A stretch of 64,000 nucleotides of DNA from assembly GCA_045632845.1 (NCBI GenBank), contig JAZQXL010000020.1:99386-163385 (forward strand), given 5' to 3'. The notes beneath the pieces were generated by a model that did no database searches, had not been told where the DNA came from, and worked only from the letters and a program-made list of their open reading frames with translations. The translations under genes and the position numbers were made by a program. The DNA is from Alphaproteobacteria bacterium. Its GTDB lineage: Bacteria; Pseudomonadota; Alphaproteobacteria; CAAHEQ01; UBA3637. Every line of letters begins with the position of its first letter. Positions within the stretch are counted from its first letter, which is position 1. Shown in pieces: positions 12,940 through 54,681 of this stretch.

Positions 12940-12944
12940 ACCTC

Positions 12945-15368: not shown

Positions 15369-15383
15369 AGTTTATCCTTTCCT

Positions 15384-15986
15384 TTAATAGCCTTGTAAAA
15401 GGTTTACTTTTTTAATCAGTTGGATTAAAACAGTTGCCATCTTTTCATCTGTTATAACCAAGTGAACTTGTTCATCTTGCCCTGTTACACTTCCCAATTC
15501 TTGTCTTGAAAAACAATTTAAAATAGGAAAAGTATCTGTTGAACGGTACAATTTATCATGTCCATTTTTTGCTGCATCTTGAGCCTCAAAAGCAATCAAG
15601 ACTTTTTGAGCTTCAATCGCTTTTTTAACCCCCTCAAACCCAAAAACCAAACACCCTGATTTTCGAGCAAATGAAATCAAATTAAGAGCTTTTGTTTTTA
15701 ATGAATTTATAACCATTTCTCTTAAATTTTCAGGAATTTTAACAGTCCCTTTTGCAGCTTTATAAAATATTTTTTTTTCAATAGCTGCATCCAACGAATC
15801 CTTTGTTGGATACAACCATATACCAGCACCTGGTAATTTTTCATTTACATCAAACACAACTTCCCGATCAGGAGAGATGACAAAACGAATCATCTCTTCC
15901 CGAGGAAAGAATTTTTTTGTAACAAAACAACTTTTCAAACCATTATCAGCTGCTCGTTTATGTTGATGTCTATTAATCTTATTCAA
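15384..15986 (-). CDS. YlxR (DUF448)-L7Ae-like RNA-binding protein of the nusA-infB operon
   Basis: CFVTKKFFPREEMIRFVISPD...LPGAGIWLYPTKD (YlxR motif) plus C-terminal L7Ae-like segment. Sits between nusA and infB, as is typical in alphaproteobacteria. Confidence 0.75.
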   Translation of the reverse strand: MNKINRHQHKRAADNGLKSCFVTKKFFPREEMIRFVISPDREVVFDVNEKLPGAGIWLYPTKDSLDAAIEKKIFYKAAKGTVKIPENLREMVINSLKTKALNLISFARKSGCLVFGFEGVKKAIEAQKVLIAFEAQDAAKNGHDKLYRSTDTFPILNCFSRQELGSVTGQDEQVHLVITDEKMATVLIQLIKKVNLLQGY

Positions 15987-17478: not shown

Positions 17479-17496
17479 TTGTATACCTTTCTTTGA

Positions 17497-17985
17497 TTAT
17501 TTTTTTGGTTGTTTTTGCATAAACGTATCAGTTAACAGAAGTTTTGCTTTTGAAATTTCAGAAAAAGCAATTTGAAGCTCTTGATCTTCAAAAGCAAAAT
17601 GCACAGTATGTGTCACTTCATCATATTTTAAAATTTTGCCTTTAAAGCGTTTTCTACCATTAATATCGTGAAGTGTTTCAATTTTTGCATCAGATCCTGC
17701 AAAACGAGAATAATCAGCTTCACGAACCAAAGGCCTGTCAACACCTGGAGATGAAATCTCTAACATATATTTGTTGGGAAAAATATCTTCAACATCCAAC
17801 AGAGCTGAAGATGTACGACTAATTTTTTCACAATCAGCAAGAGTCATTGCAGCCCTATCCAAACGTTCAGCCATAATTTGAACAGTTTTAACGTCACCAC
17901 CTTGCAATGAGATTCTCACAATTTCATATCCCATATCCAACAAGGATGGGGACAACATTTCTGTTAATTGAGTTGATAGTTCCAT
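17497..17985 (-). CDS. rimP: Ribosome maturation factor RimP
   Basis: Immediately upstream of nusA. LLDMGYEIVRISLQGG...VTHTVHF. Typical size of 162 aa. Confidence 0.85.
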   Translation of the reverse strand: MELSTQLTEMLSPSLLDMGYEIVRISLQGGDVKTVQIMAERLDRAAMTLADCEKISRTSSALLDVEDIFPNKYMLEISSPGVDRPLVREADYSRFAGSDAKIETLHDINGRKRFKGKILKYDEVTHTVHFAFEDQELQIAFSEISKAKLLLTDTFMQKQPKK

Positions 17986-18180
17986 TGTTTTTCCTTTACT
18001 AAAAAAGGCGAGCTAACTAGCTCACCCTCATAAAATCATTGAGAATATAGGTACATTATACATATTTTTTACAAAAAAACAAGTGTTTTTACAAAAAAAA
18101 GATATCTTTTGGAAAAAAACTTGCAAAAACTCAAAAAAATTTGTTAACTATAAGAAAAATAGATTAAAAAAGGGGATACA

Positions 18181-19407
18181 ATGCTATTTTCAAAAAAAAC
18201 ACCTCAAACAGTTGAAGAAATAAAAACCGAAGAAGCAAGCGAACCTGCTTCAAATCCAATGCCTCAGGCACCAGCTTTTTCTGGACCTGCATCAATTCCT
18301 CAAGCACCTGTTCTTACCTTAAAAAAAGAGCAACTTATTGGAAATTCTAATACCTCTTCACCTAAAGAACCAGAAGATAATGTTCAAACAACCAATCCGT
18401 TTCCTCACGAAGAAACACAAGGGGATGGAACAAAAGTTTTTAAAGCACAATCCGTTCAAGATGTTAATTTTTCAGACATTTGGTTAACGCCAGAAAAAGT
18501 TTCATACATCCGTGATAAATCCACTAAATTTGCCTTAATTCCTTTTGAAACAGATGATATGGATGACTTTTTAAGAGCACTTGATCAAAACTTTCAAGGT
18601 GCCTCTAGTTATTCCATTAAATTCAAAGGAGAAGCTTATCGTGTAGAACGCGTTGTTACAACAACTGGGATTCAATATAACTGCCGAAAAATGCCATCAT
18701 CTACACCAAACATATATAATCTTGGATTACCCGAACCTGTTGTTAAATATATGACTTCCCTTGCAACCGAATCTGGGCTACTTCTTTTTGCGGGTCCAAC
18801 AGGTATGGGAAAAACAACATCTGCCTCAGCCTTGATACGCGAATTTTTAGAAACACATGGTGGATTCTTATACACCATTGAAGACCCACCTGAAATGCCT
18901 TTAGATGGCATTTATCATGCCAAAAATGGAGGCTTAGGATTATGTAAACAAAGTCCCGTTGAAAACGAAAGATGGGAAGATGGATTAAAATCCGCCTTAC
19001 GTTCTCGTCCAAGATACATCCTTGTTGGAGAAATCAGAACGCCTGAAGTTGCCTCTCAAGCATTACGCGCAGCAACATCTGGACACCTTGTTGTATCAAC
19101 CATTCATGCAAACAGCGTTGAAGATGCTTTAAACTCTTTGATCAAATATGCTGCTGGTGCAGGGTTAGATGAAAAACTTGTTTGCGACCTTTTGGCTCGT
19201 GGCATTTTGGGTGTTATTCACCAACAATTGGAAGGGACAACAACCTTGCGACCTGTTATTCATACCGCTTTTGCAAACCCAAACCCAATGGTAGCTTGCC
19301 AAATGCGTATGAGCATCCGCGAAGGAAAAATTGCTCTTGCTACATTTATGGAGGCACAAAACACCAGAATGTTCCAAGGCCGACCTTTATTTAGGGAAAT
19401 TAAATAA
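18181..19407 (+). CDS. PilT/VirB11/CpaF-superfamily secretion ATPase with divergent, Pro-rich N-terminal region
   Basis: Walker A LLFAGPTGMGKTTSAS. Asp box YTIEDPPEM. Walker B RYILVGEIRTPE. His box SGHLVVSTIHANSVEDAL (PilT-like). The first ~150 aa are low-complexity (PQAPAFSGPASIPQAP) and unlike the PilT N-domain. RBS aaaaaggggata upstream. Confidence 0.8.
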   Translation: MLFSKKTPQTVEEIKTEEASEPASNPMPQAPAFSGPASIPQAPVLTLKKEQLIGNSNTSSPKEPEDNVQTTNPFPHEETQGDGTKVFKAQSVQDVNFSDIWLTPEKVSYIRDKSTKFALIPFETDDMDDFLRALDQNFQGASSYSIKFKGEAYRVERVVTTTGIQYNCRKMPSSTPNIYNLGLPEPVVKYMTSLATESGLLLFAGPTGMGKTTSASALIREFLETHGGFLYTIEDPPEMPLDGIYHAKNGGLGLCKQSPVENERWEDGLKSALRSRPRYILVGEIRTPEVASQALRAATSGHLVVSTIHANSVEDALNSLIKYAAGAGLDEKLVCDLLARGILGVIHQQLEGTTTLRPVIHTAFANPNPMVACQMRMSIREGKIALATFMEAQNTRMFQGRPLFREIK

Positions 19408-19426
19408 TGTTTTCTCTCTCAAAACA

Positions 19427-19451
19427 AAAAGCCCCGCTCGGGGCTTTTTTT
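19427..19451 (+). terminator. Rho-independent terminator after the ATPase gene
   Basis: aaaagccccgctcggggcttttttttg. Confidence 0.6.
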
Positions 19452-19601
19452 TGTTACAAATAAAATAAAAGAGAGATTAAGATCTCTTTTGTTAATAAAT
19501 TTATTTCTATTTAAAATAAAAAAATCGAAGATTGTTTTTCCCACAGATAAATATCCTGTAACATATGTTTTTTTAACAACCAATCAAAAAGGAAACATAA
19601 A

Positions 19602-20222
19602 ATGATTTACGGATATATCAGAGTTTCAACTGACAAACAAACCACAGAAAACCAAAAATTTGAAATCGAGCAATTTTGTATTCAAAACAAGATTGTTATT
19701 GACAAATGGATAACCGAAACCATTAGCGCAACAAAAGAGTTAAATAAACGAAAACTTGGTACTCTTTTAAGACAAATTAAAAATGACGATATTGTTATTG
19801 CAACAGAATTATCCAGATTAGGTAGAAATCTGCTTCAAGTCATGAGTATTTTACACCACTGTATGAATGTTGGTTGCCAAATTTGGACTATTAAAGACCA
19901 CTATCGACTTGGGAAAACCATAGAATCAAAGGTATTAGCTTTTGCTTTTGGATTAGCCGCAGAAATTGAACGAGATCTTATTTCTCAACGAACTAGCGAA
20001 GCTCTAAAACGATTAAAAACCGAAGGAAAAACTTTGGGGCGTCCCAAAGGAAAAAAGAATCAAAAATGTAAATTGGAAAATAAAAAAAATCAAATTAAAA
20101 ACCTTTTGGAAAAGAAAGTTCCCAGAAACAAAATAGCAAAAACCATAAATGTTGATGTAAAAACATTAAATAAATTTATCGATGATTATAAAAAATATGT
20201 TGTTTTTTCCTTATTTTTATAA
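19602..20222 (+). CDS. Small serine recombinase (resolvase/invertase family)
   Basis: MIYGYIRVSTDKQTTENQ (catalytic Ser in the YxRVSTxxQ motif). LSRLGRN. C-terminal HTH KIAKTINVDVKTLNKFI. 206 aa. Confidence 0.85.
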   Translation: MIYGYIRVSTDKQTTENQKFEIEQFCIQNKIVIDKWITETISATKELNKRKLGTLLRQIKNDDIVIATELSRLGRNLLQVMSILHHCMNVGCQIWTIKDHYRLGKTIESKVLAFAFGLAAEIERDLISQRTSEALKRLKTEGKTLGRPKGKKNQKCKLENKKNQIKNLLEKKVPRNKIAKTINVDVKTLNKFIDDYKKYVVFSLFL

Positions 20223-20225
20223 CAA

Positions 20226-20258
20226 AAAAGCCCCTGACGAGCAGAGGCTTTTTCTTTA
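20226..20258. terminator. Bidirectional terminator between the recombinase gene and tuf
   Basis: aaaaaagcccctgacgagcagaggctttttcttt imperfect hairpin with T-run. Confidence 0.45.
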
Positions 20259-20272
20259 TTTTGCGGCTTTGA

Positions 20273-21463
20273 TTATTCAAAGATTTTTGCAACAACGCCG
20301 GCGCCAACTGTGTGACCACCTTCACGAATAGCAAAACGCAAACCTTCGTCCATAGCTACAGGAACGATCAATGAAACTGTTAATTTAACATTGTCGCCTG
20401 GCATAACCATTTCAACACCTTCAGGTAATTCGATTGTACCTGTAACGTCTGTTGTACGGAAGTAGAATTGTGGGCGATAGTTTGCGAAGAATGGTGTATG
20501 ACGACCACCTTCATCTTTGCTCAACACATAAACTTCTGATTCAAATTTTGTGTGTGGAGTAATTGTTCCTGGAGCAGCCAAAACTTGACCACGTTCAACT
20601 TCGTCACGTTTTGTACCACGGAGAAGAGCACCGATGTTATCACCAGCTTCACCTTGATCCAATAATTTACGGAACATTTCAACGCCTGTACATGTTGTTT
20701 TAGCTGTTGGACGGATACCAACGATTTCAACTTCTTCACCAACTTTTAATACACCGCGTTCTACACGACCTGTAACAACTGTACCACGGCCTGAAATTGA
20801 GAACACGTCTTCGATTGGCATCAAGAATGGTTTGTCTTTTGGACGTTCTGGTTGTGGAATGTATGAGTCAACTGCTTCCATCAATGACAAGATAGCATCA
20901 CGACCGATTGCTGGATCACCATCATCTAATGCAACTTTTGCAGAACCTTTGATAACTGGAATATCATCACCTGGGAATTGGTATGAAGATAACAATTCAC
21001 GGATTTCCATTTCAACTAATTCTAACAATTCAGCATCGTCAACCATGTCAACTTTGTTCATGAAAACAACGATTGCAGGAACGCCGACTTGGCGAGCGAG
21101 CAAGATGTGTTCACGAGTTTGTGGCATAGGACCATCAGCTGAAGAAACAACTAAGATAGCGCCGTCCATTTGAGCAGCACCAGTAATCATGTTTTTAACA
21201 TAGTCAGCGTGGCCAGGGCAGTCAACGTGTGCATAGTGGCGGTTTGCTGTTTCATATTCAACGTGTGATGTTGAAATGGTAATACCGCGTGCGCGTTCTT
21301 CTGGAGCTTTATCGATGTTTGCATAATCAACGAAAGCTGCGCCACCTTTTTCTGCCAATACTTTTGTAATAGCAGCTGTTAATGTTGTTTTACCGTGGTC
21401 AACGTGACCGATCGTACCGATATTGCAGTGCGGTTTTGATCTTTCAAATTTTTCTTTACTCAT
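20273..21463 (-). CDS. tuf: Elongation factor Tu
   Basis: [32 protein letters not shown]...[26 protein letters not shown]. 396 aa. Confidence 0.97.
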
Positions 21464-21525
21464 TATTATTTTCCTTAACTGATCAGTGTTAAAAAATTAA
21501 AATCCCACTATGGGATTTCGTTAAA

Positions 21526-21599
21526 TGGAGCGGGTGAAGGGAATCGAACCCTCGTAGTCAGCTTGGAAGGCTGGAGCTTTACCATTAAGCTACACCCGC
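21526..21599 (-). tRNA. tRNA-Gly (anticodon UCC)
   Basis: Reverse complement GCGGGTGTAGCTTAATGGTAAAGCTCCAGCCTTCCAAGCTGA...GGTTCGATTCCCTTCACCCGCTCCA. Confidence 0.85.
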
Positions 21600-21619
21600 A
21601 CATCAGTCGGGTTCGTCCT

Positions 21620-21705
21620 TGGTGGAAGGGGAAAGATTCGAACTTTCGTAGACATAAGTCGGCAGATTTACAGTCTGCTGCCATTAACCACTCGGCCACC
21701 CTTCC
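21620..21705 (-). tRNA. tRNA-Tyr (anticodon GUA)
   Basis: Reverse complement GGAAGGGTGGCCGAGTGGTTAATGGCAGCAGACTGTAAATCTGC...long variable arm...GTTCGAATCTTTCCCCTTCCACCA. Confidence 0.85.
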
Positions 21706-21842
21706 ATCTTTGGACGGACAACTTACACCAACCTCTGTGCAAGTAGGGTTATTATGCCTTTAAATTAAGCTCTTGTCAAGAACTTTTTTAAAAAAATAAT
21801 AACTCTTTCAATTTTATAGAAAAAACTTAATAAAATTTCACT

Positions 21843-23582
21843 TTATTTGAGCCGTTCTAACAATTCTTTTTCAAGCTCAGGCGTTAAATCGTACTTTAAT
21901 GCAAGGGCCTTTTCATATTGCGATTTAGATTCTCTTAAACGACCCAAAGCTTTATAAATATCGCCTAAATGCATATTCGCAACAGAGCTTGCTCCCATAC
22001 CATCAACCGCTTTTTCTGCAAAAAGGAGAGCATCATTATAACGTTCTTGCTTATAATAAGCAAATGCAAGCGAATCCATTATTTCTGGTGAATTTGGGGC
22101 TAACTCATTTGCTTTTTCTAAAAAGGCAACCGCTTCATTGATATGTAAATCTTTTTCAAGCCAAGCATAAGCCAAATAATTCAAAACAGAAGCATCATTT
22201 GGATCTAATCTCAAACATGACCTCATATTTTTTTCAAACAAATCAAATTTATCCTCTTCCAAATAACAGGCACCCGCATCAAAATAAACATCTTTAAAGT
22301 TACTTGCACCCATTTTTTCTAACAAAGAAATTGTTCGCTCATAAAAAGGAATCGCAGATTTACAATCCCCAATTTCTTTATATGAATTTGCAATAAGGGT
22401 TGATAAAACAAAATTGCTTTTATTCCGTGTTTCTAACTCATTAAAAATCACCAAAGCCTCTTTAATTTTCTTTTCTTTTAAATAAAGATTCCCTTTTTTA
22501 TAAAGAATAATATCTGACCTATTTGAAGTTTCCCATAATTCATCATAAATTTTATGTGCCGCATTAAAATGTCCTAAACGATCAAAACTTTCTGCCAACC
22601 AAATTTTTGCCAAATTATGATTATTATTTAAAAATAAAGATACATTCACAATAAAAGCTGCAACCTCATGTTGGTTAGAAGCATTAATTCCCCAAGAATA
22701 AAAGACCTCACTCATCCCCTCTTGTGGTGTTTTAATTGCTGGCATACCAACTTGCTCAATAATGTCTTTTAATAAAGGCGTTTCATTTAATATTTTTGTG
22801 TATTTTAACACATACCCGTTGCTAAAATTCCATCTTTTTCGTCTTTGAAAAAATTCTTTTCCAGAAACAAGCGCTGTCCATGAAGAAATATTGGGAATTG
22901 CTGCGATTTCATTATAATATTTTTCCGCAGCAGATTGATCACCAAAATAATCCATTATCAATGCAGAATGGTACAATCTTGTATGGTTTGAAAATTCATC
23001 TTTTTCCATTTTATTTAATGTTGCAAGAGCCTTTTCTTTATCTTTCAGACCAGCATAAACCCAAGCAAGCAAAGGATATTCATAAGATTTTTCCATCTTA
23101 TCTTTATTCAAAAGAAGAATGGCTTTTGCTTGTTGATAATTTTGATTTTTAATTGCGTGCGCAACCTTCACATAAGTAGCAAAAAAGAATTCATTATCCT
23201 TTTTTAAATCATCTGTAAAAAAAGAATTTAAGTCAGCAACATTGCCTGAAACACCCTCTAAAAAGTAAAGTTGTTTTGCAATAACATCATTTGTAGGATC
23301 AAGCTCATATGCTTTTCTCAAATAAAGAGCACTCTTATAAAAATCCCCTTCATTTTTAGCTGCAATTCCCGCCCAAAAAGCCCCCAAATTGATTGTTTCT
23401 GGAATTTCTCGTTCTGTCTTAAAAAACTCTTGAAACTTTTTTACTTCCTTATCTTTGGCTTGTTTTTGAGTAAAATACAAAACTTTTTCAAACCATTTAT
23501 CCATTGTTAAAGAAACTGGCTTATAAAAAAATGCACTCGATAAAATACCGCAAACAACCAAACTATAGAGAATCTTCTTCAT
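21843..23582 (-). CDS. Secreted tetratricopeptide-repeat (TPR) protein
   Basis: Signal peptide MKKILYSLVVCGILSSAFF. Multiple TPR-like repeats (ALYLRKAYELDPTN, AIPFYERTISLLE, AVAFLEKANELAPNSPE, KSQYEKALAL). 579 aa. Confidence 0.7.
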   Translation of the reverse strand: MKKILYSLVVCGILSSAFFYKPVSLTMDKWFEKVLYFTQKQAKDKEVKKFQEFFKTEREIPETINLGAFWAGIAAKNEGDFYKSALYLRKAYELDPTNDVIAKQLYFLEGVSGNVADLNSFFTDDLKKDNEFFFATYVKVAHAIKNQNYQQAKAILLLNKDKMEKSYEYPLLAWVYAGLKDKEKALATLNKMEKDEFSNHTRLYHSALIMDYFGDQSAAEKYYNEIAAIPNISSWTALVSGKEFFQRRKRWNFSNGYVLKYTKILNETPLLKDIIEQVGMPAIKTPQEGMSEVFYSWGINASNQHEVAAFIVNVSLFLNNNHNLAKIWLAESFDRLGHFNAAHKIYDELWETSNRSDIILYKKGNLYLKEKKIKEALVIFNELETRNKSNFVLSTLIANSYKEIGDCKSAIPFYERTISLLEKMGASNFKDVYFDAGACYLEEDKFDLFEKNMRSCLRLDPNDASVLNYLAYAWLEKDLHINEAVAFLEKANELAPNSPEIMDSLAFAYYKQERYNDALLFAEKAVDGMGASSVANMHLGDIYKALGRLRESKSQYEKALALKYDLTPELEKELLERLK

Positions 23583-25798: not shown

Positions 25799-26033
25799 CA
25801 CCATCATTAAACAACTCATTTGATTTTTATTTTCAATAAGTTAATCAACTTAAGGGTATGGGAGAAAAAACGAACCTTATTTTTCCTATAGCACAAATCA
25901 AATATGTTTGCAAATAATTTCACAAGAAAACTCAATAAAATTATTGTGTTATTTTGTTTTTCAAAAAACATTAAAATCTCCTCAAAATATGGAAAAAAAA
26001 GGTTCGTTTTTTTTCACACAAAAGGAGATAATT

Positions 26034-26507
26034 ATGAAATATAAAAAAAATGAGTCAGGCAGATCAATGGTTGAAATGTTGGGCGTCTTGGCTATTATCG
26101 GTGTGCTTTCTGTCGGCGGTATTGCAGGATACAGTTTGTCAATGCGTCGTCACAGAGCCAATGGTGTGGTAGATTATATCTCAAAATTTGCTTTAACAGA
26201 ATATGCTAAATGTCAACAAGAAGTGCTAGAAACCGGTATTTCAACATGGTACTGCAGCAATAAGGGGACATCATATTCACCCAACAGCACCCAATTGCCC
26301 GATATTGGAACTTTTCCTTCAGGAATTACTCAAATTACAACAAACGACATTTATACCGCTAGTGATGATGGTGCTGATGATAAAGTTGATATTGATGTAA
26401 AATTTTACGATCAAAAACTCTGTCAAGCAGTTGCGAGCGTTTCAGGATACAGTTGTGGCACTCAGAACAATGAACATATTATTAATTTTGTATTTAAGAT
26501 GGAATAA
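26034..26507 (+). CDS. Type IV pilin-like protein (prepilin with class III signal peptide), orphan
   Basis: MKYKKNESG|RSMVEMLGVLAIIGVLSVGGIAGYSL: short basic leader ending in Gly, Glu at +5, ~20-residue hydrophobic helix (parallels GFTLIEMLIVLAII). Two C-terminal Cys pairs (C..C). RBS aaaggaga 6 bp upstream of the ATG. Confidence 0.7.
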   Translation: MKYKKNESGRSMVEMLGVLAIIGVLSVGGIAGYSLSMRRHRANGVVDYISKFALTEYAKCQQEVLETGISTWYCSNKGTSYSPNSTQLPDIGTFPSGITQITTNDIYTASDDGADDKVDIDVKFYDQKLCQAVASVSGYSCGTQNNEHIINFVFKME

Positions 26508-31853: not shown

Positions 31854-32021
31854 GCATACACAATATCCTCGGTCTATTTTTTCTTTTAAAACTATTGAAT
31901 CACTTTTAACATTGGAAAAACAACTAAGTACAAACATTTAATCCCACTTATTTTTTCTTGATTTTGACTTAAAAGCATATTATACTTTTTTTAAATTGGC
32001 TGTTTGTTTAAAGGAGAAAAC

Positions 32022-33635
32022 ATGTTTATATCTCAAAATAATTTATCCACACAAGACGATCTTATTTTAAACATTGATAAGCCAGTTAAACAGCCTTGGT
32101 GGGATAAAAAGGGATTTATTGCCGCAGCTATTTTCAGCGCTGTATGGCTTGCATTTATTTGGGATTATTTATTTTCTTCTGGTTGGTGGAGCACAAGACA
32201 TGAACTCTCCCCAGCTGAATTTATTGGCGGATTATGCGGATTATTTATCCCTATAGTCATTGCCGTTTTAATCAGCTCTTATTTTGATAGAGCCAATCAA
32301 TTAAACTACGAGGCTCAAACTTTACGTTCGTATTTAGGAGAACTTGTCTATCCAACAAATAGCGGTGCAACCTATACAAAATCAATAACAAATGCGTTAA
32401 GAGAGCAAGTTCAAGAATTCAAAAAAGTTTATACCAACACAGCAAGGCAAACGCAAGAATTGGGAGCACAACTCCACCAGTGGTCTGACGAGGTTGCTCA
32501 ACAGATTCATCAATTAAACATCAACACATCAAACAGTATTCGAGAACTTTCTAGCAGTATTGAAAGGTTGAATGCGCATACTGTTAAAGCAGGAAAACAA
32601 GTTTCTCAAAGTGCAACTTCTTTTAATGAAAAACTTGTGTTATTGCAAAGAATTACAAATGAATCAAGTGCATCTTTTAATCCAATTATATCAGAACTTC
32701 AAACTGTTGCGAATGAATTAAAAAAGATTGAATCATCACTCAAAGAATCTGATTTGGCCGCTAAAAATATTTTAGAAGGCACACAAAATTCAACTGAAAA
32801 GATTGAAACAAATCTCAACAATATCAAAGAAATTATTTCTGCTTATGAACAAACTTCAAATAAAAAAGAGGAACTGTTAGAAAGCAGATTAAAACAAGCA
32901 AAAGCTGTTTTAAACATTCAAAATGAAGCTATCGAAAAATCTGACAAGTTCTTAAAAGAGCATGAAGATATTATCTTAAAAGCACAAACATCTATCCGCA
33001 GCCACAACACAGCCCTTATGCAGGCAGAAACACATGTTAAAAACCACCAAGAAACATTGGATAAAACCCTAACCTCTTCCCTTCAAAAAATAAAAGAAAT
33101 CGATTCTTCTTTAATTGAAAACTGTGATAAAACAACAAAAGCAATCAATGAAGCTATTGAAAAATTAAAAACAGCTCACAACGACTTAAAAGAAAGTGCA
33201 GATTCGGCTCCATTATTTAAAAATTTAGAAACAAATGCAGTAGATACACCAACTAAAAAACCTGTTGATTTCTTGCAAAATGCTTCAGCTATTTTGGATA
33301 AACTTCAAATGTTTTCTATCGATATGGCTCATATATTCACACCAAAATCAGAATCAACATTGTGGAAAAAATACTATGATGGGGATAAAACTGTATTTAT
33401 GCGCCACATTACACGTATGATTTCAGAAACACAGCACAAACAAATCAAAGAATTATACAAAGAAAATGCTGAGTTTAATCAAGCCATCAACAGATATATG
33501 ACTGAATTTGAAGATATGACTCAAGCTGTTCAAAAAGAAGACGAAAATAAACTTTTGATGAGCATTTTGATTGGCTCTGATATTGGACGCTTATATATGG
33601 TTCTTGCTGACGTGTTAAAAAGACAAGATTCTTAA
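32022..33635 (+). CDS. Hypothetical membrane-anchored coiled-coil protein
   Basis: Two N-terminal TM segments (FIAAAIFSAVWLAFIW, FIGGLCGLFIPIVIAVLI). ~400 aa of predicted coiled coil. RBS aaaggagaaaac before the ATG at 32022. Confidence 0.6.
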   Translation: MFISQNNLSTQDDLILNIDKPVKQPWWDKKGFIAAAIFSAVWLAFIWDYLFSSGWWSTRHELSPAEFIGGLCGLFIPIVIAVLISSYFDRANQLNYEAQTLRSYLGELVYPTNSGATYTKSITNALREQVQEFKKVYTNTARQTQELGAQLHQWSDEVAQQIHQLNINTSNSIRELSSSIERLNAHTVKAGKQVSQSATSFNEKLVLLQRITNESSASFNPIISELQTVANELKKIESSLKESDLAAKNILEGTQNSTEKIETNLNNIKEIISAYEQTSNKKEELLESRLKQAKAVLNIQNEAIEKSDKFLKEHEDIILKAQTSIRSHNTALMQAETHVKNHQETLDKTLTSSLQKIKEIDSSLIENCDKTTKAINEAIEKLKTAHNDLKESADSAPLFKNLETNAVDTPTKKPVDFLQNASAILDKLQMFSIDMAHIFTPKSESTLWKKYYDGDKTVFMRHITRMISETQHKQIKELYKENAEFNQAINRYMTEFEDMTQAVQKEDENKLLMSILIGSDIGRLYMVLADVLKRQDS

Positions 33636-38505: not shown

Positions 38506-38715
38506 ATGCAAATACTTATTAAAATTTTAGCAATTGTATGTTTGATAGGAGCTCTCAATTGGGGATTGGTTGGATTTTTTGGATTTGATTTAATTGCCGC
38601 TCTTTTTGGACCAATGACTCTTATTTCAAGACTTATCTATTCTCTTGTTGGAATCAGTGCAGTCTTGCTTGTTGTTCTCTCTATCAAGCAATATAAACAG
38701 CTTAGCATTGATTAA
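38506..38715 (+). CDS. DUF378-like small membrane protein
   Basis: LIGALNWGLVGFFGFDLIAALFG (conserved NWGL motif of DUF378). RBS aaaaggagaaac upstream. 69 aa. Confidence 0.6.
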   Translation: MQILIKILAIVCLIGALNWGLVGFFGFDLIAALFGPMTLISRLIYSLVGISAVLLVVLSIKQYKQLSID

Positions 38716-38770
38716 AACAAATAAAGCCTGATTAGTATCCCCATCTACAAAGATACCTCTCAGGCTTTAT

Positions 38771-41215
38771 TTATGCTTGTTCTAGATATGCTTGAACCAA
38801 TGCATCTGTATCTTGAACCTGTTTAGCCAATCTTTCAGCCAAAATAACACTTTTGTTACCAGAAGAGTAAATTTTTAACAAAGGCCCTAAACCACTTAAA
38901 TCAACATCTAAAATAACAGATTCGTGAATTGCAGGACGAGAAACCAAAATAGCATACTTTCTATCTGCAAACTCTTTTCCCAAAATAAAGTTCATTTCTC
39001 TTGGCGTTAAATTCCATGTTGCATAGTCTGATGGATTTGCTTGAGGGTTTCTAAAGAAAATAACTGTTTGACATTGACCACGAATAACATCACCCAAACC
39101 ATTATCATCCAAAAACCTTGGTTGTTGGAAAGCACACAAATAAGCTTGTCGTTTTTTACGACCTTCACGAAGACCAACAATAAAACTATCTTTAAACATT
39201 GGATGCTCTAACATTGGAGCAGTTTCGTCAATCATAATCAAACTTGGTGTACCCATAACAGTAGATAACGTTTGAATACGATACATTACATAACTAATAA
39301 CAGCAGGCGCTAAAACACTATCTTGGAAAATAGTTGTAAAGTCAAAAGCCATATATCTGCTAGACAAATCCAAATTATCCGTTAACGAGTTGAAAACACG
39401 ACCATATTGATCATCATTAACCCATCTAAACAATTCTCTTCTCATATAACCATTTGGTGCAAAACAACTTTTATATAAGTTTTTCAACAACCGTTCATCT
39501 GGTCTTAAATATTCAAATGCTGTTGTTACTGCACGCGCAATTTCTTGTTCTGAAATAGCATCTGTACCCCCTGTAATATCACGCATCCATGTTCTTAAAA
39601 AGGCACGTGTATCAGAGGAATCAGGAACAGCAAAAGGATTTAAAGATACAGATTCTTCCCCCCCATCAAATCGAACGTATGGAGCACCTTGCATTAATGC
39701 AAAAACCTTAGCACCATTATTTCTATCAAAGAAATAAGTTCTCAAATCTGGAATACGCATAGATTGCCCTGCAAGGAAGGAGAAAAGCGTTGTTTTACCT
39801 TGTCCAGTTGGACCAATTAATGCGGTATGAGCTACAGCATATTGTTCTTCAGATACGTGAAATTGGAAAGCATATGCCGTTCCTGTAATCGTTCTAAAAT
39901 AAGATAAAGGCATTGGACCCCAATCTGATTTTCTTCGACCTTCAGCTGTTTTATCAATACATACAGCACAAGCAACAACACGTGACAAATATAAGAATGT
40001 TCTTGGATAAATTTCATATGTTGGGAATTGTGCAAAAAATGTTGCTTGAGCAGACCACCCTTCACGAACAGGTGTCACATTGTGCAAACGACAGATTTTT
40101 TCAATCTCTTCTTGCCCGAATTTCAACTCTTCTTTGCTTTCGCCAAAAATAAAGACAGACATTGCATATTCATTTAATGTTTGACCATCAGCATCTGATT
40201 GATCCATCCATTCTAAAGCGGTATTATACTGGGCTTGAACGTTTGTTGAAAACGTTGTTAACCAAGCCATTCTTCGTTGTTGCATCAAGAGCATATTTGC
40301 TTTAATCATAGGGATAGCTTTGATATTGTGAACCAAGGTAACTTCACAATCAATACTGATAATATCAGCAATCATTTGTTCATCCATAAAATCCCCTGGT
40401 TTGCGAATACCAATGCATATACCATATTTAATAATATCGCCTGAAAAGAATTTAATAATCCCTTCATCTTTTGTAAAATGGATATAATCTGCTGTTAATA
40501 AAGCATTTAAAGTATCTCCTTCCTCACCACCAATTCTTGGTTGAGGAACAGATAATGGACTTGCTAATTGTGAAAAAAGCCAAAAAGGACTTTTATCATT
40601 ATGCTTATGAGGTGTTTTTTCTGAAATCAAAACAGGCTCATACACATCCAAAATAGAGGTTAAAGCCAATGTTGCTTGTTGCAAATCATCTAGAGCATTT
40701 TTTCGATCATTAATAGAAATAACAATATAATGTTTATTTCTAAAAACACGTTGCATATTCTCCATCCATTTTGTTGATACTTTTTTGAGAAGCTTGCTAT
40801 CCCTGTGTTCCCCCATATCGTTTAAAGAAATACGCTCACGGATTGTAATTACTCTTGAAACAACCTCTAAAGAAGCCATAGAGTCAATCCATTGTTTTCT
40901 TGCTTGAGCCAAAGCCAACCTTTCTGGCCCTGTTAAAAGAGTTGTATCTGCTCCACGTACCTCAAAAACACGTGCAAGAGAACCATTTTTTAAATGGATC
41001 GTTGCACCATCTGCATCCAACCTACTAAAAGGCAAGAAATCAGAAACCCTTGTTTCTCTAGGTTTTGGTAAAATAATGTCCCCTAATTTTGTCACAAAAA
41101 CAGACATAATAAACATTGCTGCACAAACACCAATTAGTGCAACCAATGTTGAAAAAGAGGATGCCCCCTGTGCTAACAGGTCAAAAATATTCATGTCAAA
41201 ATGGATATCATTCAT
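38771..41215 (-). CDS. virB4: Type IV secretion system ATPase VirB4/TrbE/CagE family (orphan)
   Basis: 814 aa. N-terminal TM helix. Walker A TALIGPTGQGKTTLFSF. Walker B-like SLIMIDETAPML. C-terminal motifs GLREGRKKRQAYLCAFQQP (VirB4 RK/Q motifs). Confidence 0.85.
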   Translation of the reverse strand: MNDIHFDMNIFDLLAQGASSFSTLVALIGVCAAMFIMSVFVTKLGDIILPKPRETRVSDFLPFSRLDADGATIHLKNGSLARVFEVRGADTTLLTGPERLALAQARKQWIDSMASLEVVSRVITIRERISLNDMGEHRDSKLLKKVSTKWMENMQRVFRNKHYIVISINDRKNALDDLQQATLALTSILDVYEPVLISEKTPHKHNDKSPFWLFSQLASPLSVPQPRIGGEEGDTLNALLTADYIHFTKDEGIIKFFSGDIIKYGICIGIRKPGDFMDEQMIADIISIDCEVTLVHNIKAIPMIKANMLLMQQRRMAWLTTFSTNVQAQYNTALEWMDQSDADGQTLNEYAMSVFIFGESKEELKFGQEEIEKICRLHNVTPVREGWSAQATFFAQFPTYEIYPRTFLYLSRVVACAVCIDKTAEGRRKSDWGPMPLSYFRTITGTAYAFQFHVSEEQYAVAHTALIGPTGQGKTTLFSFLAGQSMRIPDLRTYFFDRNNGAKVFALMQGAPYVRFDGGEESVSLNPFAVPDSSDTRAFLRTWMRDITGGTDAISEQEIARAVTTAFEYLRPDERLLKNLYKSCFAPNGYMRRELFRWVNDDQYGRVFNSLTDNLDLSSRYMAFDFTTIFQDSVLAPAVISYVMYRIQTLSTVMGTPSLIMIDETAPMLEHPMFKDSFIVGLREGRKKRQAYLCAFQQPRFLDDNGLGDVIRGQCQTVIFFRNPQANPSDYATWNLTPREMNFILGKEFADRKYAILVSRPAIHESVILDVDLSGLGPLLKIYSSGNKSVILAERLAKQVQDTDALVQAYLEQA

Positions 41216-41227
41216 TTTTGATTTTCC

Positions 41228-41518
41228 TTATGGAGCAAGTTTGTTTCCTTTATCTTTATATACATTTTTTGATGGTGTTGCCATTGGACCAAATGTCAAC
41301 ATCATTTTTGATAAATGAGGTTCGCGAACAGAGTAAGCCGCAATCAATCCATGGGATACAGCAATAGTTCCAATAAAATAAATTGGATTAAGATTAAATG
41401 TTGCTGTACACACACACATAATCCCCATCTGGATTGAAAAATTAACCACAGCAGGATACATTGGCGCCCAAAAGACGCGTGGCGGCATTGCAACAGCTTT
41501 TAAAATCGGCTCTCTCAT
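41228..41518 (-). CDS. virB3: VirB3/TrbD-like small inner-membrane T4SS protein
   Basis: 96 aa, directly upstream of virB4 with a 12-bp gap. AMPPRVFWAPMYPAVVNF motif resembles the VirB3 TRP...G.P...N signature. Two predicted TM helices. Confidence 0.7.
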   Translation of the reverse strand: MREPILKAVAMPPRVFWAPMYPAVVNFSIQMGIMCVCTATFNLNPIYFIGTIAVSHGLIAAYSVREPHLSKMMLTFGPMATPSKNVYKDKGNKLAP

Positions 41519-41735
41519 ATCAACCCCCTATACAACATATACTTCATTTTATTATATTATACAATAAATTAAAAAACTATTAACAAAAAAAATTTCATAA
41601 AAAAAATCGTATCTTTTTTAAAATATGGATTATGAAGCTAAATTTGATATTTTTCTTGACTTTTTAGCAAAAAAAGTGCATTTTAACCGCTGAAAAACCA
41701 TACAAAAAGGTAAACAACAACAAAGAGAGTTAAAA

Positions 41736-51348: not shown

Positions 51349-52161
51349 TTATTTTGAACAATTAAAATCCTCGATTTGTTGTTCTGGATCAAGTCGTGTT
51401 CCATACCATGTTATAGTGTAATGAAGGTGTGGTCCAGTTGATCTTCCTGTGTTTCCAATTTCTGCAATTATGTCTCCTTTTTTTACAACAGCTCCTTCTT
51501 TTACTGAAATTTTATTTAAATGTGAATAACTTGAGAATAAGCCATATCCATGATTAATTAAGAGTGTTTTTCCAGACAAAAACATGTCGTTATGAGCAAG
51601 TGCAACAACACCATCTGCTGGTGCATATAAAGGTGTTCCAATAGGTGCTGCATAATCTACACCGCTGTGACCTGCTTTTTTAATATTATTTAAAATTCTT
51701 CTTGCACCAAAAGGGCTTGAAATACGTTTAAATTTTTTAACAGGTCTTTCAAAACATGTTGGGAAAAAAGATGTATTCATTCTACCTCTTGCTTCTCTAA
51801 GGAGTTGATTTTCTTGTTGAATTCGTTTTGTGTTTTTGTTTGAAGGGGTTACTTTTTCTGGTTGAAGACCTGTAACAATCTCTTCTTTCCACTTTCTTTT
51901 TTCGACAGAAAACTTTTTAATTTCTTTTTCCCCGTTTGAATGAATAAGTGTGAGATTTAATATTGTTGAATCTTGTGGAAGACCAAAGAAAAATTTCCCC
52001 TTTTTTGTTGGTATAATTTCAGTTGAGCCAATCAAAAGTTTTTCATCTTTGTTCAGTTGACCATAAATAAGAGCACCTTCCTGAATTTTTGATGTTATTT
52101 CAAAAGAAAAAACTGAAAAACTATAAAAACATCCAATTAAAAGAGGTAGGTATTTTTTCAT
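51349..52161 (-). CDS. M23-family (LytM-type) peptidase, secreted
   Basis: Signal peptide. HSGVDYAAPIGTPLYAPADG and GNTGRSTGPHLHY (HxxxD and HxH motifs). Confidence 0.8.
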   Translation of the reverse strand: MKKYLPLLIGCFYSFSVFSFEITSKIQEGALIYGQLNKDEKLLIGSTEIIPTKKGKFFFGLPQDSTILNLTLIHSNGEKEIKKFSVEKRKWKEEIVTGLQPEKVTPSNKNTKRIQQENQLLREARGRMNTSFFPTCFERPVKKFKRISSPFGARRILNNIKKAGHSGVDYAAPIGTPLYAPADGVVALAHNDMFLSGKTLLINHGYGLFSSYSHLNKISVKEGAVVKKGDIIAEIGNTGRSTGPHLHYTITWYGTRLDPEQQIEDFNCSK

Positions 52162-53463
52162 CTATATATCCTTAAACAAATTGATTTGATGTGATTCTGG
52201 GGTAATTTTTTTCTTTTTCACGGATGTTGATGTTATTGATTTATTTGTTGGTGAAACAAGAACATTTTTATCTGAAAATTTGATAAAGAAATTTTCTTTT
52301 GTTTCAGCTATTGTCCCTGAAGTGATAACTTTTCCATCTGTATCTGTTACTAAAGAGAAGCCTCTTTTTAAAATTTCATTATATGAATAAGAAGATAGTA
52401 ATTTTGATACAAAAAATAATTTATTTTCAGTTGTTGTGAAGAATGTTTTTAATGCATTTTTGAACCGTTCGGTCTTGTCATCCAATTTTTCAAAAAACAA
52501 ATTGATTAATTCATTTAATTTTGGCATAGACCTTGATAATGATTCTAATTTTAATTTACTTTCATTCAAAAAACGGTATAACGCATCTATATTTCTGGAA
52601 GAAAGCTGTGTTAATGTAGAAATCAACTCACTTCGAACAGGTACGGCTTTTTCAGCAGCACCTGTTGGTGTTGGAGCTCTTAAATCTGATGCAAAATCAA
52701 TTAAAGTTGTATCTGTTTCATGTCCAACAGCGGAGATGATTGGAATTTTTGAAGCAGCCGTTGCTCTTACGACAATTTCTTCATTAAAACACCATAAATC
52801 TTCAAAACTACCGCCCCCTCTTGCAACAATGAGAACATCAGGTTTTTTAATATGTTTATTTTTAAGTGTAAGACCTTCTTTTGGAATATTATTAAAACCA
52901 TTAATAGCGGCCGCTATTTGTTCTGCAGCGCCCTCGCCCTGCACAAGAACCGGCCATAAATAAACTTCTCTTGGAAAGCGTTCATTTAACCTGTGCATAA
53001 TATCTCTTATTACAGCGCCACTTGGGCTTGTAACAACACCAATAGTTTCTGGAAGATAAGGTATTTTTTTCTTTTTAGAAGCATCAAAAAGACCTTCTTT
53101 TTCGAGTTTTTCTTTTCGTTCTGCCAGCAATTTTAACAAAGCGCCAATACCTGCAGGCTCAGCTTTATCAACAATCATTTGATAATTTGATCGACCCGGG
53201 TATGTGGATAACTTTCCTGTACAGACAATTTCTAAACCATTTTCAAGTGATGCTAATGTTGTTTTATCTCGTCCACGCCAACAAACAGCTGATAAAACAG
53301 AATCGTTGTCTTTTAGTGAAAAATAAATATGTCCAGAGGGAGCTTTTTTAACACCTACAACCTCACCTTTAACCCGAATATCGCTAAAAACTTGTTCAAC
53401 ACAGCTTTTAAGTGAAAGAGATATTTCTGTAACTGATAAAATTGGTTTGTTTTCTATTTCCAT
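52162..53463 (-). CDS. xseA: Exodeoxyribonuclease VII large subunit
   Basis: OB-fold N-terminus LSVTEISLSLKSCVEQVFSDIRVKGEV. ARGGGSFEDLWCFNEE motif. Confidence 0.88.
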   Translation of the reverse strand: MEIENKPILSVTEISLSLKSCVEQVFSDIRVKGEVVGVKKAPSGHIYFSLKDNDSVLSAVCWRGRDKTTLASLENGLEIVCTGKLSTYPGRSNYQMIVDKAEPAGIGALLKLLAERKEKLEKEGLFDASKKKKIPYLPETIGVVTSPSGAVIRDIMHRLNERFPREVYLWPVLVQGEGAAEQIAAAINGFNNIPKEGLTLKNKHIKKPDVLIVARGGGSFEDLWCFNEEIVVRATAASKIPIISAVGHETDTTLIDFASDLRAPTPTGAAEKAVPVRSELISTLTQLSSRNIDALYRFLNESKLKLESLSRSMPKLNELINLFFEKLDDKTERFKNALKTFFTTTENKLFFVSKLLSSYSYNEILKRGFSLVTDTDGKVITSGTIAETKENFFIKFSDKNVLVSPTNKSITSTSVKKKKITPESHQINLFKDI

Positions 53464-53924
53464 TATTGTTTCCGTTTTGCTTTAAAAAAATCAGTTAAAA
53501 GTTTTCCATTTTCATCAGCATTTATACCGCCTTGAATAACTGGTTTGTGATGTGTTTGTTTGTGTTTAAAAACCTCTGCTCCTTGTAAAATAGCCCCTGT
53601 TTTTGGATCAAATGCACCAAAATAAATAGCATCTAATCGTGCTAATGACAAAGCCCCGGCGCACATAACGCAAGGTTCTAATGTTACAAAAAGAGAATAT
53701 CCCGTCAGTCTTTTGGTTTTTAATTTTTCACAAGCACGTTGAATAGCTAAAATTTCAGCATGCGCTAAAGGGTTTTTTGTTTGTTCAGTTTCGTTATAAG
53801 CTGTGGATATAATTTCGTATGTTTTAGAGTGATACACAACTGCTCCTACAGGAACTTCATCTTCTTTGAAAGCTTTTTGCGCTTGCTCATAAGCTGTTTG
53901 TAAAATCGTTTCGTTTGGTTTCAT
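53463..53924 (-). CDS. tadA: tRNA-specific adenosine deaminase
   Basis: CMP/dCMP deaminase zinc motifs HAEILAI...PCVMCAGAL. Confidence 0.88.
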   Translation of the reverse strand: MKPNETILQTAYEQAQKAFKEDEVPVGAVVYHSKTYEIISTAYNETEQTKNPLAHAEILAIQRACEKLKTKRLTGYSLFVTLEPCVMCAGALSLARLDAIYFGAFDPKTGAILQGAEVFKHKQTHHKPVIQGGINADENGKLLTDFFKAKRKQ

Positions 53925-53967
53925 TTTTTACTTTCATCTTTTTGTTTTTTAATATAATATACTAATT

Positions 53968-54681
53968 ATGACAGAAAAGAAAGAGAGAATTGCAAAAATA
54001 ATGGCTTCTGCGGGATTATGTTCACGTAGAACTGCCGAACAATGGATTTTAGATGGACGTGTTAAGGTAAATGGAGTTGTTCTTGAAACACCAGCATTTA
54101 CCGTTTCATCAACAGATGTCGTTCTGGTTGATGATAAACCTATTGCTCAAAAGCAAGAAACAAGGTTGTGGTGTTATCACAAACCTACTGGGTTGGTTAC
54201 AACACATAAAGATCCACAAGGAAGACCAACAGTTTTTGATTCGTTGCCTAAATATTTACCACGTGTTATTTCGGTTGGTCGTTTAGACTTAAATTCTGAA
54301 GGATTGTTATTATTAACAACTGATGGTGGTTTGGCGCGTGAATTAGAGCACCCATCAAAAGGATGGAAACGTAGATATCGTGTTCGTATTCATGGTGTTT
54401 TAACGCCAGAAATGCAAAAACGCCTTTCCAAAGGGATTACTATTGATGGAATTAGATATGCTCCTTGTGAAACTGTTGTTGAGCAAGTTAAAGGAACAAA
54501 TAGTTGGGTTTCAATTACTCTAACAGAGGGAAAAAACAGAGAAATTCGAAAATTAATGGCTTTCTTTGGATTAGAAGTAACAAGATTGATTCGTGTTTCC
54601 TATGGACCTTTTCAATTAGGTAATTTGGAAAAAGGTGAAGTTCGAGAAGTTTCTAAAAAAATGATGAAAGAATTGTTATGA
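53968..54681 (+). CDS. RsuA-family pseudouridine synthase with S4 domain (RluB-like)
   Basis: S4 RIAKIMASAGLCSRRTAEQWILDGRVKVNG. Catalytic VGRLDLNSEGLLLLT. Confidence 0.82.
   Translation: MTEKKERIAKIMASAGLCSRRTAEQWILDGRVKVNGVVLETPAFTVSSTDVVLVDDKPIAQKQETRLWCYHKPTGLVTTHKDPQGRPTVFDSLPKYLPRVISVGRLDLNSEGLLLLTTDGGLARELEHPSKGWKRRYRVRIHGVLTPEMQKRLSKGITIDGIRYAPCETVVEQVKGTNSWVSITLTEGKNREIRKLMAFFGLEVTRLIRVSYGPFQLGNLEKGEVREVSKKMMKELL

What the first reader, a model, noticed from the sequence alone, without database searches (positions are those of the whole stretch)
38771..41518. Orphan virB3-virB4 pair (T4SS inner-membrane ATPase) adjacent to gatCAB, with no other virB genes nearby
The 814-aa protein carries VirB4/TrbE signatures (Walker A LIGPTGQGKTT, DE Walker B, C-terminal RK...Q motifs). 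It is preceded on the same strand by a 96-aa two-TM VirB3-like protein. No virB2, B6, B8-B11 or D4 occurs within 20 kb on either side. This matches the dispersed (rvh-like) T4SS organisation of some reduced alphaproteobacteria, or a relic of a degraded conjugative element. Together with the PilT/VirB11-like ATPase at 18181 and the pilin-like gene at 26034, the window encodes three scattered parts of a type IV filament/secretion apparatus.
Basis: partly seen in the sequence, partly recalled or inferred. Interest (0 to 1): 0.7.

Follow-up and report, generated by a model that had tools for sequence, protein, structure and literature searches.

The report
Detached VirB3–VirB4 secretion-ATPase operon
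This is an intact, very strongly conserved two-gene operon for the inner-membrane ATPase module (VirB3 and VirB4) of a type IV secretion system in an uncultured gut alphaproteobacterium; the system's genes became scattered around the chromosome during evolution, much as in Rickettsia, so the pair is not a decaying leftover of a plasmid.

Summary
An 814-aa VirB4-family ATPase (38771-41215, minus strand) is preceded by a 96-aa ORF (41228-41518). No other T4SS gene was found anywhere in the 64-kb window.

The small ORF matches no Pfam model directly. It is nevertheless a divergent VirB3: profile-profile probability is 97% against a Pfam-validated VirB3, and 45 of 71 distant relatives hit Pfam VirB3.

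The pair is a self-contained operon and is under very strong purifying selection. VirB4 dN/dS is 0.016-0.07, as tight as the neighbouring gatA and gatB. This rules out a degraded relic.

At least 568 species-level genomes of gut and rumen Alphaproteobacteria carry this VirB4 family, always with VirB3 upstream in the 90 loci analysed. In the clade on the far side of the deepest split the pair lies inside a contiguous cluster: virB2 copies, B3, B4, four large ORFs, B8, B7-like, B8, B9. Intermediate lineages keep virB2-B3-B4. The window's clade keeps only B3-B4.

In pair-only relatives a conserved VirD4 islet lies 6-40 kb away among housekeeping genes. The dispersed, rvh-like reading is therefore supported by inference. 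The other parts could not be looked for in this genome.

The "pilin" and "PilT" genes belong to type IV pilus machinery, not to the T4SS.

The parts
38771..41215 (-). virB4: 814-aa VirB4/TrbE/CagE-family ATPase with an N-terminal hydrophobic segment (residues ~17-50), Walker A at 468-475 and Walker B at 659-664
41228..41518 (-). virB3: 96-aa divergent VirB3 with two moderately hydrophobic segments and conserved motifs MREPILKAVAMPPR..WAP and REPHLS
41216..41227 (-). 12-nt junction (TAA-GGAAAATCAAAA-ATG) carrying the virB4 ribosome-binding site; indicates co-transcription and coupled translation
   Evidence: sequence read directly
41556..41583 (-). promoter-like site TTAATA-16-TATAAT in the gatC/virB3 divergent intergenic region, about 38 nt upstream of the virB3 ATG (weak evidence: promoter-like sites are not enriched over shuffles)
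38717..38774 (-). strong hairpin overlapping the virB4 stop codon, followed by a U-run; likely a bidirectional intrinsic terminator between the convergent virB4 and DUF378 genes
   Evidence: -29.8 kcal/mol, z = -7.4, 0 of 200 shuffles as stable

Best explanation
The two genes form a self-contained bicistronic operon. It encodes the inner-membrane energising module of a chromosomal, vertically inherited, VirB-type (MPF-T-like) type IV secretion system. VirB3 is a small membrane protein that, in solved T4SS structures, wraps the N-terminal part of VirB4. VirB4 is the hexameric ATPase that docks under the inner-membrane complex and powers assembly and substrate or pilin handling. In the ancestor of this gut alphaproteobacterial lineage the system was one contiguous cluster. 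During diversification the cluster broke into islets embedded among housekeeping genes, and in the window's clade the B3-B4 pair became an islet of its own. The remaining components (at least the coupling protein VirD4, and probably VirB2, B6-like, B7-B11) are expected elsewhere on the chromosome. Shown: gene identity, intactness, operon structure, strong purifying selection, the series of arrangements mapped on the VirB4 tree, and separate VirD4 islets in relatives. Inferred: that the source genome itself still has the other parts and that they assemble into one working machine. What it secretes is unknown.
For: Identity of the two proteins: for VirB4. For VirB3, hhalign gives 97.3% probability (E 2e-11) against the Microvirga VirB3, which itself passes Pfam PF05101. 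In addition, 45 of 71 distant hits from an exhaustive profile search match PF05101. Nearest plasmid VirB4s (31-37% identity) sit in complete virB2-B3-B4...B8-B9-B10-B11-D4 operons. Selection: VirB4 dN/dS is 0.016-0.067, with 98% protein identity at dS of about 0.8. VirB3 dN/dS is 0.03-0.14. The same genome pairs give gatA 0.03-0.06, gatB 0.02-0.07 and mutS 0.07-0.16. Distribution: at least 568 species genomes carry the family. VirB3 and VirB4 are adjacent in all 90 related loci analysed, and they occur in different housekeeping contexts. Arrangement series: 14 loci have virB2 copies, B3, B4, four large ORFs, B8, B7-like, B8, B9. About 20 have virB2-B3-B4. About 50, including the window, have only B3-B4. 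A rooted NJ tree puts the contiguous clusters in the clade on the far side of the deepest split and the window deep in the pair-only clade. VirD4 is conserved in the lineage (over 120 clusters at 61-99% identity). It forms its own islet 6.3 kb from B3-B4, or about 40 kb away on the same 77.5-kb scaffold in a relative whose VirB4 is 79% identical to the window's. Operon boundaries. GC content of the pair equals its surroundings.
Against: No other T4SS component could be looked for in the source genome, because only 64 kb is available. VirB8-B11 and VirB2 were not demonstrated in any pair-only genome; the one metagenome scan failed with a tool error. VirD4 co-occurrence was shown for relatives at 71-79% VirB4 identity, not for the window's own subclade (85% or more). 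VirB4 scores below NCBIfam's curated cutoff (343 against 643 bits), and VirB3 fails Pfam directly. Both are divergent, which leaves room for altered function.
Confidence: 0.72

Rival explanations
1. The pair-only clade has lost the periplasmic and outer-membrane core (VirB7-B10) and the pilin. VirB3-VirB4, perhaps with VirD4 and its conserved islet partners, survives as a reduced inner-membrane machine with a different or narrower job, for example DNA or protein export across the inner membrane only, or a role in another envelope process.
For: No B2, B6-like, B8 or B9 homolog lies within about 10 kb of the pair in any of about 50 pair-only loci or in the 64-kb window. The only other T4SS gene seen in pair-only genomes is VirD4. 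Some pair-only genomes have evolved a VirB3::VirB4-N-domain fusion paralog, which suggests remodelling of this module.
Against: Absence within 10 kb says nothing about the rest of a genome probably more than 1 Mb long. In Rickettsiales the same kind of scattering accompanies a complete system (PMC2653234). The extreme conservation of VirB4 is what one expects of a subunit with many interaction partners.
Confidence: 0.15
2. The pair is a surviving fragment of a decayed conjugative plasmid or ICE that inserted next to gatCAB.
For: The closest plasmid relatives of VirB4 belong to conjugative-type operons with a MobA/MobL relaxase. A serine recombinase gene lies in the window at 19602-20222, but 18.5 kb away.
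Against: Both genes are intact, with dN/dS as low as essential neighbours. The family is present in at least 568 species, always as B3-B4. GC content is the same as the flanks. No relaxase, integrase or other transfer gene lies nearby. The pair keeps a conserved position about 8 kb from a GspE/PilB-like ATPase gene in both deep clades, which indicates long-term chromosomal residence.
Confidence: 0.03
3. The pair is a spare paralog (like rvhB4b in Rickettsia) of a complete virB operon located elsewhere in the same genome.
For: Duplication of T4SS parts does occur in this lineage: two virB8 genes, two to four virB2 genes, and VirB3::VirB4-N fusions.
Against: Among the best 80 species genomes, each contributes one full-length VirB4 of this family. 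The window's VirB4 is the orthologue of the VirB4 found inside the contiguous clusters (tree). It has fully conserved catalytic motifs, unlike degenerate paralogs.
Confidence: 0.07

Closest known systems
Rickettsiales vir homolog (rvh) T4SS archipelago (Gillespie et al. 2009, PMC2653234)
   Same: It is a chromosomal, vertically inherited VirB-type T4SS whose genes are split into islets among housekeeping genes. virB3-virB4 head one islet. The lineage's contiguous clusters show a duplicated virB8 flanking a small virB7-like lipoprotein gene, multiple virB2 copies, and several very large ORFs after virB4 where the rvh virB6 paralogs sit. Conservation is high.
   Different: In rvh, islet A keeps virB6a-e next to virB3-virB4a, and virD4 stays with virB8-B11. 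Here B3-B4 stand alone, and VirD4 has its own islet with an RHH protein and three conserved unknowns. No specific sequence kinship to rvh was shown: the best PDB matches of the VirB8 copies are generic VirB8 entries, and no Rickettsia entry appeared. The host organisms are gut and rumen Alphaproteobacteria, not Rickettsiales.
Conjugative VirB/Trw-type (MPF-T) T4SS, e.g. R388 TrwK/TrwM and the Microvirga pMVF16-3 and Erythrobacter aureus plasmid operons
   Same: VirB4 aligns with TrwK across the N-terminal and ATPase domains. The closest annotated homologs (35-37% identity) and their VirB3 partners come from these operons.
   Different: Those systems are contiguous operons on plasmids, with a relaxase. 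This pair is chromosomal and detached, has no transfer genes nearby, and is conserved like a core gene.
VirB3-VirB4 fusion proteins (known in several T4SSs, e.g. Campylobacter and Actinobacillus; stated from general knowledge and mentioned in PMC2653234)
   Same: They reflect the tight functional coupling of VirB3 and VirB4, which explains why these two stay together when everything else disperses. Some relatives carry a VirB3::VirB4-N-domain fusion.
   Different: In the window the two are separate genes 12 nt apart.

Membership tests
VirB4/TrbE/CagE ATPase family | Significant match to family profiles over both domains | tested here: met
   Pfam PF03135 scores 44.1 bits, above the cutoff of 21. 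TIGR00929 gives E 2.6e-102 covering residues 235-804. TrwK gives E 1e-31. Precomputed PF27097 VirB4_TrbE_N (marked weak) hits the close homologs.
VirB4/TrbE/CagE ATPase family | Reaches NCBIfam curated cutoff for VirB4_CagE (TIGR00929) | tested here: not met
   343.5 bits against a cutoff of 643.1: a divergent subfamily.
VirB4/TrbE/CagE ATPase family | Intact Walker A and Walker B nucleotide-binding motifs | tested here: met
   GPTGQGKT at 468-475 and LIMIDE at 659-664, invariant across the family alignment.
VirB3 family (Pfam PF05101) | Direct match to the Pfam VirB3 model | tested here: not met
   No hit at E <= 0.1.
VirB3 family (Pfam PF05101) | Homology to bona fide VirB3 by profile methods | tested here: met
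   hhalign gives 97.3% probability (E 2e-11) against the Microvirga VirB3, which passes PF05101. 45 of 71 distant profile hits match PF05101, best E 1.2e-10.
VirB3 family (Pfam PF05101) | About 95-aa protein with two hydrophobic segments, encoded immediately upstream of virB4 | tested here: met
   96 aa with hydrophobic peaks at about residues 22-38 and 45-62. It lies 12 nt upstream of virB4, and this adjacency holds in all 90 related loci analysed.
VirB3 family (Pfam PF05101) | Canonical N-terminal motif (GAT)L(ST)RP ... GV (as given in PMC2653234) | tested here: not met
   Replaced by AVAMPPR...WAP, which is conserved within the subfamily. The Microvirga VirB3 has the similar VSMPQR...GAP.
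rvh-type dispersed T4SS | T4SS genes in separate islets among housekeeping genes | tested here: met
   The window's pair is isolated. In relatives VirD4 lies 6.3 kb and about 40 kb away on the same contig.
rvh-type dispersed T4SS | virB6 paralogs adjacent to virB3-virB4 (islet A) | tested here: not met
   The genes downstream of virB4 in the window are DUF378, a 123-aa ORF, a 91-aa ORF and mutS. Large ORFs follow virB4 only in the contiguous-cluster clade.
rvh-type dispersed T4SS | Duplicated virB4, virB8 and virB9 | tested here: inconclusive
   virB8 is duplicated in contiguous clusters, and both copies pass Pfam VirB8. A partial virB4 paralog exists in some genomes. A second virB9 was not seen within the flanks. 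Nothing could be tested for the window's genome.
rvh-type dispersed T4SS | Phylogenetic affiliation with Rickettsiales Rvh proteins | not testable with these tools
   No Rvh sequences were available. The PDB search with VirB8 copies returned generic VirB8 entries only.
Conjugative element / ICE | Relaxase, integrase, coupling protein or other transfer genes nearby; compositional difference from flanks | tested here: not met
   None in the window. GC is 0.32-0.34, like the flanks.

The most novel reading that the evidence does not exclude
In the large pair-only clade of these gut Alphaproteobacteria the outer parts of the T4SS have been lost. A minimal VirB3-VirB4 (plus VirD4-islet) inner-membrane machine has been kept under housekeeping-level constraint for a function not yet described for T4SS ATPases.
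Probability: 0.12. Interest if true: 0.75.

Novelty: new member of a known kind. Interest (0 to 1): 0.42.

Why it matters
A widespread, uncultured alphaproteobacterial lineage of mammalian guts and rumens keeps a type IV secretion ATPase as tightly conserved as its essential translation genes. That suggests the T4SS is central to its lifestyle, through interaction with the host, protists or other bacteria; an ankyrin-repeat protein inside one VirD4 islet is a hint in that direction.

The lineage also preserves, in living genomes, the stages by which one T4SS operon broke up into islets: a contiguous cluster, then B2-B3-B4, then B3-B4. This is a useful parallel to the Rickettsiales rvh archipelago, and it shows which subunits resist separation (VirB3 with VirB4). 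For genome annotation it is a caution: an "orphan" VirB4 is not necessarily a remnant, and this VirB3 subfamily is missed by Pfam.

Tried and rejected
- **Exact-sequence look-up of the window's VirB4:** not on record.
- **PDB search with the VirB3 profile:** only a chance hit, so TrwM/VirB3 could not be reached by sequence.
- **Literature:** searches for RF32 or gut Alphaproteobacteria together with T4SS found nothing relevant.
- **Linking VirD4 to MAGs in my VirB4 list through NCBI records:** two look-ups landed in other assemblies (CBDQYX01, CBDNTH01).
- **Pfam on the large ORFs between virB4 and virB8 and on the VirD4-islet unknowns:** no informative hits, so calling them VirB6-like rests on position and size only.
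- **The simple terminator scan missed the real hairpin** because of its long loop.
- **Rejected, the 18181 ATPase as this system's VirB11:** its best family is PilT.
- **Rejected, the 26034 gene as a VirB2 pilin:** it is a type IV prepilin.
Full report
**1. What is in the sequence**

On the minus strand there is an 814-aa ORF (38771-41215). Twelve nucleotides upstream of it lies a 96-aa ORF (41228-41518).

The large protein matches the VirB4/CagE/TrbE family:
- Pfam PF03135 scores 44.1 bits, above its cutoff of 21.
- TIGR00929 gives E 2.6e-102 over residues 235-804, although 343 bits is below the curated 643-bit cutoff.
- Scores fall in the order VirB4, then TrbE, then F-type TraC.
- The only solved relative is R388 TrwK/VirB4 (E 1e-31, residues 252-756).

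This places it with VirB-type (MPF-T-like) systems as a divergent subfamily. Walker A (GPTGQGKT, 468-475) and Walker B (LIMIDE, 659-664) are intact and invariant in the family alignment. The length equals that of all homologs (810-815 aa), so there is no sign of decay. A strongly hydrophobic segment lies at residues ~17-50.

**2. The small ORF is VirB3**

It hits no Pfam or NCBIfam model. It is a real gene, conserved at 43-98% identity and 95-100 aa in the lineage. Three lines of evidence make it VirB3:
- The family profile aligns with the Microvirga plasmid VirB3, which itself passes Pfam PF05101 (24.4 against 23.9 bits), at hhalign probability 97.3%, E 2e-11. It aligns with the positional VirB3 of an Erythrobacter plasmid at 96.8%.
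- An exhaustive profile search of 1.84 billion representatives found only 140 relatives. Of 71 distant ones, 45 match Pfam VirB3, best E 1.2e-10.
- It lies immediately upstream of virB4 in every one of the 90 related loci analysed.

The canonical (GAT)L(ST)RP...GV motif quoted for VirB3 (PMC2653234) is replaced by AVAMPPR...WAP. The two hydrophobic segments are only moderate.

**3. A self-contained operon in a housekeeping neighbourhood**

The junction reads TAA-GGAAAATCAAAA-ATG, and a GGGGG ribosome-binding site precedes virB3. A TTAATA-16-TATAAT site lies in the divergent gatC/virB3 spacer, though such sites are not enriched over shuffles. A strong hairpin followed by a U-run overlaps the virB4 stop codon (-29.8 kcal/mol, z = -7.4).

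The rest of the window is chromosomal core: pnp, truB, rbfA, infB, nusA, rimP, tuf, serS, a sigma factor, map, radC, holA, miaA, a PhoR-like kinase, mutS, gatCAB, parAB, rsmG, trxB, greA, xseA and tadA. GC content of the pair equals its flanks.

No other T4SS gene was found among ORFs of at least 40 aa in the window. I searched with the proteins of two complete plasmid virB operons and with the lineage's own T4SS proteins.

**4. Not a relic**

Between the window and five relatives, VirB4 has dN/dS of 0.016-0.067. Protein identity is 98% at dS of about 0.8. VirB3 has dN/dS of 0.03-0.14. In the same genome pairs gatA gives 0.03-0.06, gatB 0.02-0.07, mutS 0.07-0.16, parB 0.05-0.18 and miaA 0.09-0.20. 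VirB4 is therefore as constrained as the essential amidotransferase next to it.

**5. Comparative genomics explains the orphan state**

A scan of species-representative genomes found relatives in at least 568 genomes. The best 80 (57-98% identity) are all gut or rumen Alphaproteobacteria MAGs, including 'Acetobacter sp. CAG:977' and 'Azospirillum sp. UMGS63'. From memory only, I believe these belong to the GTDB RF32-like orders; I could not verify this.

The pair recurs in different housekeeping contexts: gatCAB/mutS as in the window, PEBP/ppa and dxs.

Mapping T4SS homologs on the loci gives three arrangements:
- **Contiguous cluster, 14 loci:** two or three virB2 paralogs, virB3, virB4, four large ORFs (691, 287, 407 and 1276 aa in L084, with no Pfam hit), virB8, a VirB7-like lipoprotein gene, a second virB8 and virB9, after which the flank ends.
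- **Partial, about 20 loci:** virB2-virB3-virB4.
- **Pair only, about 50 loci plus the window:** virB3-virB4.

A neighbour-joining VirB4 tree rooted on the plasmid sequences puts the contiguous clusters in the clade on the far side of the deepest split, the virB2-bearing loci at the base of the other clade, and the window deep inside the pair-only clade. The outgroups are contiguous operons, so dispersal is the derived state.

A GspE/PilB-like ATPase gene about 8 kb upstream is shared by loci on both sides of the deepest split. This argues for a stable chromosomal location and against a mobile element.

**6. Other parts exist as separate islets in pair-only genomes**

One pair-only locus (L033) carries VirD4 10 kb away. 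VirD4 is conserved in the lineage, with over 120 clusters at 61-99% identity.

Its islet has a fixed composition, always among housekeeping genes:
- a divergent DnaJ-domain gene
- an RHH_4 protein
- a 346-434-aa protein
- VirD4
- a 200-223-aa protein
- a 147-159-aa protein

The islet lies 6.3 kb from virB3-virB4, with dxs, rsmD, a pseudouridine synthase gene and tadA between them. In a relative whose VirB4 is 79% identical to the window's, it lies about 40 kb away on the same 77.5-kb scaffold. This is the archipelago pattern described for Rickettsiales rvh (five islets; PMC2653234).

The resemblance extends to the virB8-virB7-virB8 order and to large ORFs after virB4. I found no specific sequence kinship, however: the VirB8 copies hit generic VirB8 structures, and no Rickettsia entry appeared. 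In rvh the virB6 genes stay with virB3-virB4 and virD4 stays with virB8-B11, unlike here.

**7. What remains untested**

I could not search the source genome beyond the window. The claim that the window's organism has a complete, working T4SS is therefore an inference. It rests on the extreme conservation of VirB4, on retained VirD4 islets in relatives, and on the Rickettsiales precedent. A reduced VirB3-VirB4(-VirD4) machine without the outer core cannot be excluded.

**8.

The gene at 26034 encodes a type IV prepilin (MKYKKNESG|RSMVEMLGVLAIIGVLS, Glu at +5). It belongs to a large paralog family (127-975 aa) in these genomes. The ATPase at 18181-19407 scores best as PilT family (1.4e-34) and only 1.7e-14 against VirB11. 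Both belong to type IV pilus or T2SS-class machinery, which is evolutionarily separate from the VirB T4SS apart from the shared secretion-ATPase superfamily. They should not be counted as parts of the same apparatus.

**9. Verdict**

The VirB3/VirB4 assignment and the dispersed-T4SS reading are supported. The relic reading and the three-part grouping are not.

The feature is a new member of a known kind: a VirB-type T4SS energising module in an rvh-like dispersed layout, in a lineage where my literature searches found no description of it. Interest is moderate. It comes from the housekeeping-level conservation, the preserved stages of operon break-up, and a VirB3 subfamily that standard models miss.

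Noticed in passing
window 26034-26507 (+); listed ORF starts at 25908: Type IV prepilin with class III signal (G|RSMVEMLGVLAIIGVLS, Glu+5). It belongs to a large paralog family (127-975 aa, variable C-terminal domains) found on both strands around virB4 loci in many relatives, sometimes directly adjacent to the pair (L045, L052, L027).
   Followed up: partly
window 18181-19407 (+) and 19602-20222 (+): PilT-family-like secretion ATPase with a ~90-aa low-complexity N-terminal extension, immediately followed by a serine recombinase/resolvase gene and then tuf on the opposite strand. This is an odd place for a resolvase in an otherwise core region.
   Followed up: partly
L029:9398-10513, also L022, L031, L032 (just upstream of virB3): A 371-aa paralog that fuses a VirB3-like N-terminus to the N-terminal domain of VirB4, with no ATPase domain. 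It is 86% identical between two genomes, and 11 representative clusters (362-442 aa) exist. Absent from the window.
   Followed up: partly
L088:7830-13365, L092:7807-13343, L095:5641-13304, L094:78-4458: Conserved VirD4 islet: a DnaJ-domain gene, an RHH_4 protein, a 346-434-aa membrane protein, VirD4, and two conserved unknowns (~200-223 aa and ~150 aa). In L095 a 605-aa ankyrin-repeat protein is inserted between the RHH gene and the 434-aa gene, which makes it a possible effector.
   Followed up: partly
L066-L087 (e.g. L084:5862-9583, 12417-22225): Contiguous clusters have 2-4 tandem virB2 paralogs, some embedded in 640-950-aa proteins. Four large ORFs with no Pfam hit follow virB4 (up to 1276 aa). 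There are two virB8 genes, one much more divergent, flanking a VirB7-like lipoprotein gene.
   Followed up: partly
window ~52000-54000: The cumulative GC-skew minimum coincides with a switch from minus-strand genes (45.2-53.9 kb) to plus-strand genes (53.97-62.2 kb). parAB-rsmG lie at 45-47.5 kb. This is probably the replication origin region.
   Followed up: no
window 38506-38715 (+): A DUF378 small membrane protein gene is the convergent neighbour of virB4 throughout the window's subclade and shares the terminator hairpin. Paralogs occur elsewhere near virB4 in other clades. This is probably coincidental synteny.
   Followed up: partly
L039, L053, L070 (record titles): Contigs carrying this alphaproteobacterial VirB4 are deposited under Holdemanella biformis, Lactobacillales and Limosilactobacillus gorillae bins. 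These are likely binning contamination in the public MAGs.
   Followed up: no
window 32004-33635 (+): A 543-aa protein with coiled-coil-type weak hits (a MamY_C weak hit in the orthologue) evolves much faster than its neighbours: 52-86% identity where VirB4 is 90-98%.
   Followed up: no
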